IMG/VR virus record: IMGVR_UViG_2582580752_000004
Reading direction: 5' to 3' (one strand)
Source of the DNA: a virus
Taxonomy: Duplodnaviria; Heunggongvirae; Uroviricota; Caudoviricetes
Length of the DNA: 45,585 bases
The number at the start of each line of letters is the position of its first letter. The first letter of the stretch is position 1. Shown here one piece after another: positions 42,975 through 44,565 of the stretch. The notes under the pieces were generated by a model that saw only the letters and a list, made by a program, of their open reading frames with translations, made no database searches and was not told the DNA's origin. A program made the position numbers and the translations under genes.

Positions 42975-44294
42975 GTGAATATGGCAGTAAAGATTTCAGG
43001 TGTACTGAAAGACGGCACAGGAAAACCGGTAGAGAACTGCACCATTCAACTGAAAGCCAGACGGACCAGCAGCACGGTGGTGGTGAACACGGTGGCCTCT
43101 GAAAATCCGGATGAAGCCGGTCGTTACAGCATGGACGTTGAGTACGGTCAGTACAGCGTCATTCTGTTGGTGGAAGGATTCCCGCCGTCACATGCCGGGA
43201 CCATCACCGTGTATGAAGATTCTCAACCCGGTACGCTGAATGATTTTCTCGGTGCCATGTCGGAGGATGACGTCCGGCCGGAGGCACTGCGCCGTTTTGA
43301 ACTGATGGTGGAAGAGGTGGCGCGTCACGCTGAGGAGGCGAAGAAGAATGCCGGAGAGGCGGAGACGTCCGCGAGGAATGCCGGCATATCAGCCAGTCAG
43401 GCAGAAGAGAGCGCTGCAAATGCTGACACTTCAGCAGGGGATGCATCGGAGTCAGCCCGGCAGGCGGCAGAAAGTGCAGCCGCTGCAAAGCAGTCAGAGG
43501 AGGCGTCCTCGTCCTCGGCTTCTGCGGCCGCTCAAAAAGCCAGTGAGTCATCACAAAGTGCAGCAGAAGCTGAATTGTCAAGAAAGACGGCAGAAAGTGC
43601 AGCCGGTAATGCAGCCAGGGATGCAACGACCGCAACAGAAAAAGCCCGGGAGTCAGCAGAAAGCGCACAGTCAGCGGAACAAAGCAGGATAGCGGCGGAA
43701 GAGGCCGTAAACCGAATCCCCACCGTGGTGGGACCTCCCGGGCCAAAGGGGGAACAGGGGCCCGCGGGTCCTCAGGGGCCGAAGGGTGATAAGGGAGAGC
43801 GCGGTGACACCGGCCCTGTCGGGGCAACCGGCGAACGGGGACCGGCAGGTGATGCTGGTCCGGCAGGCCCGCAGGGGCCGAAAGGTGACAGGGGAGAGCG
43901 GGGAGAGACCGGTCTGACGGGAAATGCAGGTCCACAGGGTCCAAAGGGAGATACCGGTGCGGCAGGCCCGGCAGGCCCACAGGGACCGAAAGGAGAAACA
44001 GGTGCGGCTGGCCCGGTGGGGGCAACCGGACCTCAGGGGCCGAAGGGCGACCCGGGGGAGACGCAAATACGGTTCCGTCTGGGGCCGGGAAACATTATTG
44101 AGACAAACAGCAATGGCTGGTTCCCGGATACAGATGGCGCACTCATCACCGGACTGACCTTTCTTGACCCCAAAGATGCCACACGGGTTCAGGGTTTTTT
44201 TCAGCATTTGCAGGTCAGGTTTGGTGACGGGCCGTGGCAGGATGTTAAGGGGCTGGATGAAGTGGGCAGTGATACAGGCAGAACAGGAGAATGA
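42975..44294 (+). CDS. stf: Side tail fibre protein (Stf-like) with Ala/Ser/Glu-rich stalk and collagen-like Gly-X-Y repeats
   Basis: N-terminus [26 protein letters not shown]... matches lambda Stf; about 35 Gly-X-Y triplets ([29 protein letters not shown]...). Confidence 0.8.
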
Positions 44295-44295
44295 C

Positions 44296-44565
44296 ATGAA
44301 CATACTAAAAAAACTTATGCAGCGTCTGTGTGGTTGCGGAAAGCATGATGACCGTGAACACGGGGAGTTACTTACAGCACAGCTGCGACTGGGGCCGGCA
44401 GACATCCTGGAGTCAGATGAGAATGGCATTATCCCGGAGCAGGACAGGGTAATCACGCAGGTGGTGATACTGGATGCGGATAAAAAGCAGATACAGTGCG
44501 TGGTAAGACCGCTGCAAATCCTGCGTGCTGACGGGACGTGGGAAAATGTTGGCGGGATGAAATAG
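44296..44565 (+). CDS. Hypothetical small protein resembling the C-terminal domain of the adjacent tail fibre
   Basis: AGGAGA SD; LRLGPADILESDENGIIPEQD...LQILRADGTWENVGG parallels the Stf C-terminus [23 protein letters not shown]...[15 protein letters not shown]. Confidence 0.4.
   Translation: MNILKKLMQRLCGCGKHDDREHGELLTAQLRLGPADILESDENGIIPEQDRVITQVVILDADKKQIQCVVRPLQILRADGTWENVGGMK

What the first reader, a model, noticed from the sequence alone, without database searches (positions are those of the whole stretch)
42975..44565. Collagen-like side tail fibre followed by a small ORF that resembles its own C-terminus
The Stf homologue has a lambda-like N-terminus and about 35 Gly-X-Y triplets but is much shorter than lambda Stf. 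The next 89-aa ORF shares a motif pattern with the last 70 residues of the fibre, suggesting a duplicated or exchangeable distal domain or a derived chaperone. No Tfa-like assembly gene is present.
Basis: seen in the sequence. Interest (0 to 1): 0.45.

Follow-up and report, generated by a model that had tools for sequence, protein, structure and literature searches.

The report
Collagen tail fibre plus small paralogue
A lambda-like E. coli prophage encodes a collagen-like side tail fibre followed one base later by an 89-residue protein that is an ancient, conserved copy of the fibre's own tip domain; the pair is real, very common in Shiga-toxin phages, and already noted in print, but its function has never been tested directly.

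Summary
The fibre (42981..44294, 437 aa) has the published EPclA layout: lambda-Stf-like N-domain, Ala/Ser-rich coil, 37 Gly-X-Y triplets, and a 64-residue C-terminal PfC domain. The 89-aa ORF (44296..44565) is a 27-residue N-terminal extension plus a second PfC domain. The two PfC domains are 37% identical (BLASTP E=8e-12), and both match Pfam PF06820 at about 120 bits.

This is not new. PGAP, Pfam and PHROG 576 already label the small protein, and Mondal et al. 2016 described its Sp5 orthologue (ORF68, 89 aa) as non-essential.

What I add:
- The pair is near-obligate: 69 of 72 loci have it, with an invariant 1-nt junction and an AGGAG ribosome-binding site.
- The duplication is old. Small ORFs from two lineages are 63% identical; the fibre PfC domains are only 39%.
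- The small ORF's PfC domain is under strong purifying selection (pN/pS 0.05-0.09, against 0.12-0.22 for the fibre's PfC).
- Two of its peptides appear in a purified phi24B virion proteome.
- I found no Tfa homologue, inversion sites, DNA-level repeat or frameshift signal.

Most likely it is a separately translated late protein that acts at the fibre tip as a dispensable cap or assembly helper. That mechanism is inferred, not shown.

The parts
42943..42974 (+). Intrinsic-terminator-like hairpin plus T tract between lom and the fibre gene.
   Evidence: 8-pair stem with 7 GC pairs, then TTTTTGTGGG. No sigma-70-like promoter was found on the + strand anywhere in 42200..44750.
42981..44294 (+). 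Side tail fibre gene of EPclA architecture, 437 aa from the ATG. The longest ORF starts at the GTG at 42975 (439 aa). Stop TGA at 44292..44294.
   Evidence: PHROG 366 'tail fiber protein', E=2.3e-153. Length, coil length and collagen length match the EPclA entries in Table 2 of PMC3368898.
42981..43379 (+). PfN, the lambda-Stf-like N-terminal domain, presumed to attach the fibre to the tail.
   Evidence: Pfam PF08400 at E=3.4e-69. 62% identity to lambda orf-401 over residues 1-247.
43380..43730 (+). Ala/Ser/Glu-rich low-complexity segment, called PCoil in the literature and shown there to be a trimeric coiled coil.
   Evidence: Sequence. The assignment comes from PMC3368898. I did not test it with a coiled-coil predictor.
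43731..44063 (+). Collagen-like domain of 37 uninterrupted Gly-X-Y triplets.
   Evidence: regex count. Pfam PF01391 at E=3.9e-18. Internal 45-nt and 43-56-nt repeats.
44067..44258 (+). Fibre PfC domain, residues 363-426 of the 437-aa form. This is the C-terminal trimerisation and nucleation domain that forms the distal globule.
   Evidence: Pfam PF06820 at 120.1 bits. The same residue range was expressed as a trimer in PMC3368898. pN/pS is 0.22 in loci chosen by the small ORF and 0.12 in loci chosen by the fibre.
44259..44291 (+). 11-residue charged C-terminal tail of the fibre ([11 protein letters not shown]). It also holds the ribosome-binding region of the next gene.
   Evidence: There is almost no nucleotide variation here across about 97 haplotypes.
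44285..44289 (+). AGGAG Shine-Dalgarno sequence, 6 nt upstream of the small ORF's ATG and inside the last fibre codons.
   Evidence: The junction TGATACAGGCAGAACAGGAGAATGACATGAA is identical in 52 of 54 loci.
44296..44565 (+). Small 89-aa ORF, a stand-alone PfC-domain protein. It starts 1 nt after the fibre stop, in the +1 frame.
   Evidence: Pfam PF06820 at 123.3 bits. PHROG 576 matched over 1-89 of 89, E=3.6e-60. PGAP name 'phage tail fiber C-terminal domain-containing protein'. 92% identical to 933W L0122.
44296..44376 (+). N-terminal extension of the small protein (residues 1-27). It contains a short predicted amphipathic helix (3-11) and a conserved L-x-G-C-x-K motif.
   Evidence: AF2 secondary structure, low confidence. 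The motif is shared with the diverged homologue P0223. pN/pS is 0.26-0.32. The maximum 7-residue hydropathy is 0.5, too low for a signal peptide.
44377..44562 (+). PfC domain of the small protein (residues 28-89).
   Evidence: pN/pS is 0.049, or 0.090 in loci not chosen on this protein.
44307..44313 (+). A7 homopolymer in codons 4-6 of the small ORF. It is a hotspot for inactivating frameshifts and probably has no function of its own.
   Evidence: In the only 2 of 72 loci with a broken small ORF, the reading frame is lost at or immediately after this run. The run is absent from the diverged homologue in L169.
44580..44606 (+). Strong intrinsic terminator that closes the fibre/small-ORF unit and the late operon.
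   Evidence: 12-pair stem followed by a T run. A similar hairpin-plus-T-run sequence (AAAAAAACCGGAGTTTTCTCCGGTTTTGC) follows the small ORF in the diverged locus L169, judged by eye and not scanned.

Best explanation
The region is a two-gene tail-fibre module that is standard in lambdoid and Stx prophages of attaching-and-effacing E. coli.

Gene 1 encodes a trimeric side tail fibre. Its lambda-Stf-like N-domain docks on the tail. [quoted passage not shown] The 64-residue C-terminal PfC domain trimerises, nucleates the triple helix and forms the distal knob. These properties were shown experimentally for a near-identical protein.

Gene 2 is an old paralogue of that PfC domain with a 27-residue N-terminal extension. 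It is a real, separately translated late protein. Ribosomes finishing the fibre gene reinitiate 1 nt downstream at a conserved AGGAG-N6-ATG, so it is made together with the fibre. Both genes depend on antiterminated late transcription and are closed off by a strong terminator.

I infer that it folds like PfC, probably as a homotrimer, and acts at the fibre's distal end as a dispensable cap or assembly/stability helper. In gene order it takes the place that Tfa has beside lambda Stf.

Shown here or in the cited papers:
- homology of the two PfC domains;
- obligate linkage of the two genes;
- purifying selection on the small ORF;
- translation of the small ORF;
- dispensability on K-12.

Inferred: trimer formation, binding to the fibre tip, and the benefit it confers.
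For: Homology. BLASTP E=8e-12. Both proteins match PF06820 over the full model.

Linkage.
- Nearly all of the 80 viral contigs found with the small ORF carry a fibre PfC ORF immediately upstream; 2 loci, one cut by its contig end, show only the small ORF.
- In the 54 loci recovered by an independent anchor, that ORF ends 1 nt upstream.
- 69 of 72 contigs found with the fibre PfC have an intact small ORF 1 nt after the stop.
- 696 of 5,426 complete E. coli genomes carry it, at a median of 12 copies.
- A functional phage, 2B8, has the same J-lom-stf-small order.

A real gene.
- pN/pS of its PfC domain is 0.049, or 0.090 in loci not selected on it. The fibre PfC gives 0.22 in the loci not selected on it.
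- The Shine-Dalgarno sequence and junction are near-invariant.
- Two peptides unique to the phi24B orthologue (VITQVVILDADKK and ADGTWENIGGMK) were detected in gradient-purified virions. The only gel slice with an excess over the fibre is a low-molecular-weight one.

Old, retained paralogue. In a diverged locus, a non-collagen 212-aa fibre with a PfC domain is followed by a 79-aa small ORF. The layout is the same: overlapping start, AGGAGG, a terminator-like hairpin (by eye), then effector cargo. Identities are small-small 63%, fibre-fibre 39%, cross 32-38%.

Late expression. Terminators flank the unit and no promoter-like site lies on the + strand.

Position. Lambda has J-lom-stf-tfa. This window has J-lom-stf-small ORF and no Tfa homologue.

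PfC trimerises by itself and nucleates collagen refolding (PMC3368898).

A sticky end is plausible. Recombinant EPclB, made without the small protein, aggregates heavily through one globular domain.
Against: - No direct evidence shows that the small protein binds the fibre or forms trimers.
- Recombinant EPclA folds into trimers without it.
- The Sp5 orthologue is listed as non-essential for plaque formation and lysogeny on K-12, while the fibre itself is essential. It cannot be an obligatory chaperone.
- The virion signal is only 6 spectra. That is the same range as proteins the authors treated as contaminants, Q (19) and Lom (23).
- The preprint's main text has no mention of 'gp60' and none of the retrieved passages discusses the small protein; I did not search the main text for 'gp59'.
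- Structure prediction gave no usable model: pLDDT 50 and 53. No fold match reached E<=0.001.
- A distal receptor-binding cap would usually be variable, yet this protein is more conserved than the fibre tip.
Confidence: 0.45

Rival explanations
1. Silent reservoir cassette. The small ORF is kept as an alternative C-terminal domain that recombination can swap onto the fibre to change specificity. This was proposed for Sp5 ORF68 by Mondal et al. 2016.
For: The idea is published (PMC5155283). Rare chimeras exist. P0063 joins collagen triplets to the small-ORF PfC through a GPA microhomology. P0179 joins the small ORF's N-terminus to a fibre-type PfC. Genomes carry about 12 copies, which gives many recombination partners.
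Against: - The two PfC copies share no DNA-level repeat, so homologous exchange is not favoured.
- The chimeras are clusters of 4 and 1 sequences, and P0063 lies at the very edge of a 3.3-kb contig. It may be an assembly artefact.
- No full-length fibre with the small-ORF-type PfC was seen in 160 loci or among 174 protein clusters.
- A silent cassette would not need a conserved Shine-Dalgarno sequence and ATG or a conserved N-terminal extension, and it would not yield peptides.
- pN/pS of 0.05-0.09 indicates selection on the expressed protein.
Confidence: 0.08
2. Programmed +1 frameshift or stop bypass at the fibre stop codon fuses the two ORFs. A fraction of fibres would then carry two PfC domains in tandem.
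For: The small ORF is in the +1 frame, and that frame is open for 45 codons upstream of its ATG. The stop is UGA-C preceded by an SD-like AGGAG, which superficially recalls the prfB frameshift site (own knowledge). The phi24B authors put hypothetical fusions in their search database. A protein with four tandem PfC-like modules exists (P0232).
Against: - Mondal et al. found no frameshift-inducing sequence.
- The P-site codon GAA cannot re-pair in the +1 frame (inspection).
- The AGGAG abuts the stop rather than being spaced as in prfB (own knowledge).
- In the diverged locus the two genes overlap by 14 nt in a different geometry.
- The only gel slice with an excess of small-ORF spectra is a low-molecular-weight one, not the fibre band.
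- No junction peptide is on record in the part of the file that is held.
- The natural fusion proteins P0160 and P0263 are singletons; P0263 carries further frame errors and P0160 is truncated.
Confidence: 0.05
3. A host-surface-directed factor rather than a fibre partner. The free PfC-like protein is released at lysis, or exported, and masks a receptor. This would protect progeny from adsorbing to debris or block superinfection, in the manner of T5 Llp or Cor.
For: It lies immediately downstream of a receptor-binding fibre gene, as llp lies beside the T5 receptor-binding gene (own knowledge). Its fold is related to a putative receptor-binding knob. The conserved L-x-G-C motif near the N-terminus superficially resembles a lipobox. 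Dispensability in the laboratory fits an ecological role.
Against: - The 13 residues before the Cys have a maximum hydropathy of 0.5-0.9. Export as a lipoprotein is therefore unlikely.
- Cys14 is Tyr in 7 of 56 alleles.
- There is no own promoter, and a terminator lies upstream, so expression in lysogens is unlikely.
- In Citrobacter rodentium the gene decays together with the fibre remnant. That argues against an independent benefit to the host.
- At 37% identity to the fibre PfC, shared receptor specificity is doubtful.
Confidence: 0.15
4. A non-functional remnant of a duplicated 3' end of the fibre gene, kept only by linkage.
For: It is non-essential in Sp5. It is short and has no assigned function.
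Against: It shows strong purifying selection. The ORF is intact in 69 of 72 loci. It is conserved at 63% identity across lineages in which the fibre tip fell to 39%. It is translated.
Confidence: 0.02

Closest known systems
Sp5 ORF67/ORF68, 933W L0121/L0122 and phi24B gp61/gp59 (short-tailed Stx2 phages)
   Same: The same two-gene module: a collagen-like fibre ending in PfC, followed by an 89-aa PfC-only ORF. The small protein is 92% identical to 933W L0122. [quoted passage not shown]
   Different: In those phages the fibre is the longer EPclB type (645 aa, two collagen segments plus a Pf2 repeat) on a podovirus tail. Here it is the 437-aa EPclA type on a lambda-like siphovirus tail with J and Lom.
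EPclA collagen-like prophage proteins, e.g. ECs2717 of Sakai Sp14 (Ghosh et al. 2012, PMC3368898)
   Same: The same architecture and dimensions: 437 aa, a 116-aa coil, a 111-aa collagen domain and PfC at 363-426. The neighbourhood is also the same, next to tccP. Biochemistry on that protein showed it to be a trimer with a true triple helix, with PfC as the trimerisation and nucleation module.
   Different: None of the passages I retrieved or sections I read from that paper mention the downstream small ORF, and a search for 'downstream' found nothing. Its recombinant fibre was made without it.
Lambda Stf (orf-401/orf-314) with Tfa (orf-194)
   Same: The same gene order after J and lom. The N-terminal 247 residues are 62% identical. 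A small gene directly follows the fibre gene.
   Different: The distal two thirds of the fibre are unrelated (collagen plus PfC, against the Stf repeats). The partner is not a Tfa homologue: tblastn E>=0.7 and no Pfam hit other than PF06820. Instead it is a paralogue of the fibre's own tip.
Tip-binding fibre partners (Mu/P2 Tfa, T2/T4 gp38); own knowledge
   Same: A downstream gene product that acts on, and sometimes stays on, the distal end of the fibre. This is the working analogy for the mechanism.
   Different: No sequence or demonstrated fold relationship. Those partners are generally required for fibre assembly or adsorption, whereas this one is dispensable on K-12. The Mu fibre-chaperone complex 5yvq appeared only as a meaningless Foldseek hit at E=3.6.
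C-terminal trimerisation and nucleation domains of collagens and phage fibres (collagen NC1 or C-propeptides, T4 fibritin foldon); own knowledge
   Same: PfC works like these. It is a small C-terminal domain that trimerises alone and re-nucleates the triple helix after melting.
   Different: No homology is shown. None of those systems is known to me to encode a free second copy of the nucleation domain next to the fibre gene.

Membership tests
Pfam PF06820 Phage_fiber_C (PfC) | Score above the gathering cutoff (25 bits) with full-length coverage of the 64-position model. | tested here: met
   Fibre residues 365-428 score 120.1 bits over model positions 1-64. The small ORF, residues 28-89, scores 123.3 bits over positions 1-64.
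EPclA architecture (Ghosh et al. 2012) | PfN, then PCoil, then a single collagen domain, then PfC, in that order. | tested here: met
   PF08400 at 3-135, PF01391, and PF06820 at 365-428. There are 37 GXY triplets, i.e. 111 aa, and 437 aa from the ATG, as in Table 2 of PMC3368898. PCoil was assigned by position and composition only.
EPclA architecture (Ghosh et al. 2012) | Trimeric, with a triple-helical collagen domain and a trimerising PfC. | not testable with these tools
   This was shown experimentally for rEPclA from Sakai. I infer it here from near-identity of architecture.
PHROG 576 / PGAP 'phage tail fiber C-terminal domain-containing protein' (stand-alone small PfC proteins) | End-to-end match to the 89-position family profile. 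| tested here: met
   Residues 1-89 match profile positions 1-89, E=3.6e-60. Sequences 94-99% identical form clusters with hundreds to thousands of members.
Lambda Stf side tail fibre | N-terminal tail-attachment domain homologous to lambda orf-401. | tested here: met
   62% identity over 247 residues, E=2e-80.
Lambda Stf side tail fibre | Stf distal region (orf-314 part) and a cognate Tfa. | tested here: not met
   tblastn with orf-314 and with Tfa against the window gives best E-values of 0.43 and 0.70.
Tail fibre assembly proteins (Tfa, Caudovirales tail fibre assembly family) | Sequence membership of the small ORF. | tested here: not met
   The small ORF matches only PF06820 in Pfam at E<=0.1, nothing in NCBIfam, and lambda Tfa finds nothing.
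Invertible tail-fibre C-terminus switches (Mu G / P1 C / e14 P segments) | An alternative C-terminal exon in opposite orientation, flanking inverted crossover repeats, and an adjacent invertase. | tested here: not met
   The small ORF is on the same strand. Only three weak inverted pairs were found, none flanking a PfC. No ORF lies between the small ORF and the effector gene.
Diversity-generating retroelement (variable region in the fibre 3' end plus a nearby template repeat) | A near-identical DNA repeat of the fibre's 3' end and a reverse transcriptase gene. | tested here: not met
   No direct DNA repeat links 44067-44258 with 44377-44562. The protein identity is only 37%.
Programmed frameshift fusion (lambda G/GT or prfB type) | A conserved slippery or shift-prone site at the junction, and a detectable fusion product. 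| tested here: inconclusive
   I found no recognised shift site by inspection, and none was found by Mondal et al.. The junction geometry differs in L169. Mass-spectrometry spectra fit a low-molecular-weight species. No experiment targeted at a fusion product exists.
Phage lipoprotein receptor blockers (T5 Llp, Cor) | A hydrophobic signal peptide followed by a lipobox Cys. | tested here: not met
   An L-C-G-C motif is present, but the maximum 7-residue Kyte-Doolittle hydropathy is 0.51. Cys14 is replaced by Tyr in 7 of 56 alleles. No signal-peptide predictor was available.

The most novel reading that the evidence does not exclude
The small protein is a true structural subunit. A homotrimer of the paralogous PfC domain would stack through its N-terminal extension onto the fibre's own PfC trimer and its charged C-terminal tail. 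The distal knob would then be a two-tier PfC-PfC assembly split across two genes. The single-chain form of such an arrangement, tandem PfC-like modules, exists in P0232. This would be a new kind of tail-fibre partner: a tip cap derived from the fibre's own trimerisation domain, replacing Tfa. It could set receptor access or stow the fibre tips, which in phi24B point back toward the capsid.
Probability: 0.2. Interest if true: 0.5.

Novelty: already known. Interest (0 to 1): 0.27.

Why it matters
The module sits in essentially every Stx-converting phage and in about a dozen prophages per EHEC genome. Whatever the small protein does affects how Shiga-toxin and effector-carrying phages are built or spread.

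The role of the collagen-like lateral fibres is itself listed as an open question in the 2026 phi24B structure preprint. A conserved, co-translated paralogue of the fibre tip is an obvious but untested lead.

For this scan, however, the window holds an ordinary, already annotated copy. The value of this review is a clearer statement of what is excluded: cassette, inversion, DGR, an essential chaperone and, less firmly, a frameshift fusion. It also sets out what to test next.

Tried and rejected
1. Structure. AlphaFold2 monomers of the small ORF and of the fibre's last 100 residues gave pLDDT 50 and 53. Only the order of beta strands agrees between the two models. Foldseek against BFVD and PDB found nothing at E<=0.001. 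Sequence searches of the PDB found nothing credible. The phi24B authors report the same failure for this domain.

2. Wider relatives.
- An exhaustive HMM search of 1.84 billion representatives returned only 96 hits, mostly E. coli fragments.
- A scan of 185,579 species' genomes returned 5 loci.
- Two of those are misplaced E. coli-like sequence: a 725-nt 'Xanthomonas pisi' contig and a 'Clostridiales' MAG contig that is an E. coli prophage piece.

3. Inversion switch and DGR: no suitable repeats.

4. Lipoprotein or signal peptide: rejected on hydropathy and on Cys14 variability.

5. A Zn-binding C-x-C...H...H motif in the N-terminal extension: the His residues are not kept in the C. rodentium copy or in P0223.

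6. T3SS effector: the gene lies upstream of the late-operon terminator. The real effector cargo (tccP2, nleG, espM2) lies beyond it.

7. A −1 frameshift on the A7 run: it would terminate after about 13 codons, and the run is absent from the diverged homologue.

8. Co-variation between fibre PfC and small-ORF alleles: not attempted. Tight linkage and about 12 recombining copies per genome would confound it.

9. Literature by locus tag (ECs1229, ECs2716, L0122, Z1484, Z3073): nothing relevant.
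Full report
**What is there**

The window ends with the distal tail genes of a lambda-like prophage:
- J (38776..42249);
- an Ail/Lom barrel (42317..42916);
- a 437/439-aa fibre gene (42981 or 42975..44294);
- an 89-aa ORF (44296..44565);
- a strong terminator;
- on the other strand, an EspF-repeat effector that RefSeq calls TccP2.

The best whole-region matches are prophages of EPEC/EHEC strains, serotypes O145:H28, O103:H2 and O157:H7, at 97-98.5% identity.

**Checking the observation**

- The fibre's first 247 residues are 62% identical to lambda orf-401, E=2e-80. They match Pfam phage_tail_N at E=3.4e-69.
- There are 37 uninterrupted Gly-X-Y triplets.
- The last 64 structured residues match Pfam PF06820 (Phage_fiber_C, 'PfC') at 120 bits.
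- The small ORF matches the same model end to end at 123 bits.
- Direct BLASTP of the two gives 37% identity over 62 residues, E=8e-12.
- Lambda Tfa finds nothing in the window, best E=0.7.

**It is already known**

The fibre is the EPclA architecture of Ghosh et al. 2012 (PMC3368898). Its length, coil length and collagen length equal their Table 2 entries. Their representative, ECs2717, lies in Sakai prophage Sp14. They showed the following:
- the recombinant protein is a dumbbell-shaped trimer;
- the collagen segment is a true triple helix that melts at 42 C;
- the isolated PfC domain is itself a trimer (24 kDa measured, 7.2 kDa per chain);
- PfC re-nucleates the helix after melting.

None of the passages I retrieved or sections I read from that paper mention the downstream ORF. 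Mondal et al. 2016 (PMC5155283) do, for the short-tailed Stx2 phage Sp5. [quoted passage not shown] It is listed among the non-essential late genes and is not among the nine essential ones, while the fibre gene ORF67 is essential. They found no frameshift signal and suggested a reservoir for fibre variation.

PGAP names the product 'phage tail fiber C-terminal domain-containing protein'. PHROG 576 is an 89-position family that it matches end to end.

**How constant is the pairing**

- Nearly all of the 80 IMG/VR contigs retrieved with the small ORF have a fibre PfC reading frame immediately upstream. Two loci, one cut by its contig end, show only the small ORF.
- The junction TGATACAGGCAGAACAGGAGAATGACATGAA is identical in 52 of 54 loci located by an independent anchor.
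- Of 72 contigs retrieved with the fibre PfC that have enough downstream sequence, 69 carry an intact small ORF 1 nt after the stop. In two more the reading frame is lost at or immediately after the A7 run in codons 4-6.
- The small ORF with its junction occurs in 696 of 5,426 complete E. coli genomes, at 7,384 places, median 12 per genome.
- It occurs in 296 phage records, nearly all Stx-converting or related phages, at 88-99% protein identity.
- The plaque-forming phage 2B8 has the same J-lom-stf-small order.

Outside Escherichia and Citrobacter rodentium the family is almost absent.

**Is the small ORF a gene?**

Yes. Using Nei-Gojobori counts over unique alleles:

| Region | pN/pS, loci chosen by the small ORF | pN/pS, loci chosen by the fibre |
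|---|---|---|
| Small ORF, PfC domain | 0.049 | 0.090 |
| Small ORF, N-terminal 27 codons | 0.26 | 0.32 |
| Fibre PfC | 0.22 | 0.12 |

The fair comparison takes each protein from the loci that were not chosen on it. That gives 0.090 for the small ORF and 0.22 for the fibre tip.

An AGGAG lies 6 nt before the ATG. The last 45 nt or so of the fibre gene show almost no variation. That fits selection on the initiation region, though gene conversion among the many copies could do the same.

The proteome supplement of the 2026 phi24B cryo-EM preprint holds two peptides unique to the orthologue, VITQVVILDADKK and ADGTWENIGGMK, at 3 spectra each. The only gel slice where the authors' hypothetical fibre/small-ORF fusion out-scores the fibre alone is a low-molecular-weight slice. 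So the protein is made and some of it co-purifies with virions. Six spectra, however, is within the range of proteins the authors dismissed as contaminants.

**Age of the duplication**

A diverged locus, L169, comes from an assembly with no megablast match in complete E. coli genomes. It carries a 212-aa non-collagen fibre ending in PfC, followed by a 79-aa small ORF. The starts overlap by 14 nt behind an AGGAGG. A terminator-like hairpin (judged by eye) and T3SS-effector cargo then follow.

Domain identities are small-small 63%, fibre-fibre 39% and cross 32-38%. The two paralogues therefore separated before these lineages did. Both have been kept, and the free copy is the more conserved one. 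The N-terminal extension shares the motif M-x-I-[LF]-K-K...L-x-G-C-x-K in both lineages.

**What it is not**

- Not an inversion switch or DGR target. There are no flanking inverted repeats, no DNA-level repeat between the two PfC copies and no recombinase or reverse transcriptase.
- Not a Tfa homologue.
- Probably not a frameshift extension. There is no recognisable shift site, the junction geometry differs in L169, and the mass-spectrometry signal is at low molecular weight. The natural fusion proteins are singletons: P0263 carries further frame errors and P0160 is truncated.
- Probably not a lipoprotein. The residues before the Cys are far too polar, and the Cys is Tyr in 7 of 56 alleles.
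- Not an obligatory chaperone. The fibre folds without it and Sp5 infects K-12 without it.
- Unlikely to be a swap cassette. Only two sporadic chimeric clusters were found (4 and 1 sequences), and one sits at a contig edge.

**Most likely mechanism**

Terminators after J, after lom and after the small ORF, together with the lack of any promoter-like site on this strand, make the two genes a unit. That unit would be read only by antiterminated late transcription. The 1-nt gap and the Shine-Dalgarno sequence imply coupled translation, so both proteins appear together in the induced cell.

PfC is a self-trimerising beta-rich knob. The free paralogue keeps all the core positions shared by the family: G33, G44, P47, T54, L59, L73, Q74, D79, G80 and W82. 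It most likely forms a similar trimer.

The fibre has an 11-residue charged tail after its PfC that the small protein lacks. The small protein has a 27-residue extension before its PfC that the fibre lacks. A collagen-containing protein from elsewhere, P0232, carries four PfC-like modules in tandem in one chain, so stacking of such modules along a fibre has a precedent.

I therefore favour a dispensable tip-associated partner, either a cap that shields a sticky end or a helper that improves fibre yield or stability. It occupies the slot that Tfa has in lambda. [quoted passage not shown] My confidence in the mechanism is about 0.45. My confidence that this is a functional, separately translated late protein is about 0.9.

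**Limits**

- Structure prediction failed (pLDDT 50-53) and the fold searches were empty.
- The alleles come from many recombining prophage copies, so pN/pS values are descriptive rather than a formal test.

**Verdict**

The finding is real and correctly described. It is an ordinary copy of a widespread, annotated and previously noted module. Its function remains an open, testable question.

Noticed in passing
window 44692..45585 (- strand, runs off the window end): An EspF-repeat effector gene, named TccP2 in RefSeq neighbours. It has 141-nt tandem repeats (4.4 copies, 98% matches) that encode 47-residue proline-rich units. It lies just beyond the late-operon terminator, as typical prophage cargo.
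   Followed up: partly
window about 44200..44295: The last 45-90 nt of the fibre gene show almost no nucleotide variation across about 97 haplotypes. Synonymous diversity is about 0.1 on either side. This could reflect selection on the small ORF's translation-initiation region or homogenisation by gene conversion. Part of the trough is forced by the anchor I used.
   Followed up: partly
window 44307..44313: An A7 run in codons 4-6 of the small ORF. In the only two broken copies among 72 loci (L162, L164), the reading frame is lost at or immediately after this run. This could be real slippage or sequencing error.
   Followed up: partly
bioRxiv 10.64898/2026.04.10.717836, proteome supplement: Two peptides unique to the phi24B orthologue of the small ORF were detected in purified virions. 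The authors added hypothetical fibre/small-ORF frameshift fusions to their database and labelled the row 'Spike or just gp59?'. None of the main-text passages I retrieved discusses it.
   Followed up: yes
L169:110-974 (GCA_008387015.1 contig AAKHPG010000016.1): A diverged version of the module. A 212-aa fibre without collagen but with a PfC end is followed by a 79-aa small PfC ORF that overlaps it by 14 nt. A terminator-like hairpin and NleG/SopA-like effector genes follow. The species was not identified, and the locus is absent from complete E. coli genomes.
   Followed up: partly
protein P0232 (565 aa, from the exhaustive search): A collagen-containing, fibre-like protein with four tandem repeats that resemble the C-terminal half of PfC (...TVVVLDAD...GILQVRRADGTWxEIPALKG). 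The hairpin-plus-DGxW unit is therefore a reusable module outside Escherichia phages. Its origin and genomic context were not examined.
   Followed up: no
L082 and L083: A 725-nt contig filed under Xanthomonas pisi carries a small ORF 92% identical to the query. A 3.8-kb 'Clostridiales' MAG contig is a J-lom-stf piece of an E. coli prophage. Both look like contamination or mis-binning in public assemblies.
   Followed up: partly
L171:7307-7546 (phage 2B8): A 79-aa ORF annotated 'tail fiber assembly protein' lies 2.5 kb downstream of the small ORF, among effector genes. It may be a relic of an older stf-tfa arrangement. The equivalent region lies beyond the end of this window.
   Followed up: no
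window 43204..44025 and 43671..44579 (- strand): Long antisense ORFs of 273 and 302 aa run across the collagen-coding region. They are most likely artefacts of the GC-rich, stop-poor Gly-X-Y coding repeats rather than genes.
   Followed up: no
L086-L088 (Citrobacter rodentium): A decayed copy of the module. The fibre is reduced to 161-166 aa (PfN fused to PfC). The small ORF is shortened to 78 aa by an N-terminal truncation and a 4-residue internal deletion. It sits next to an NleG effector gene in L086 (none is called in L087 or L088).
   Followed up: partly
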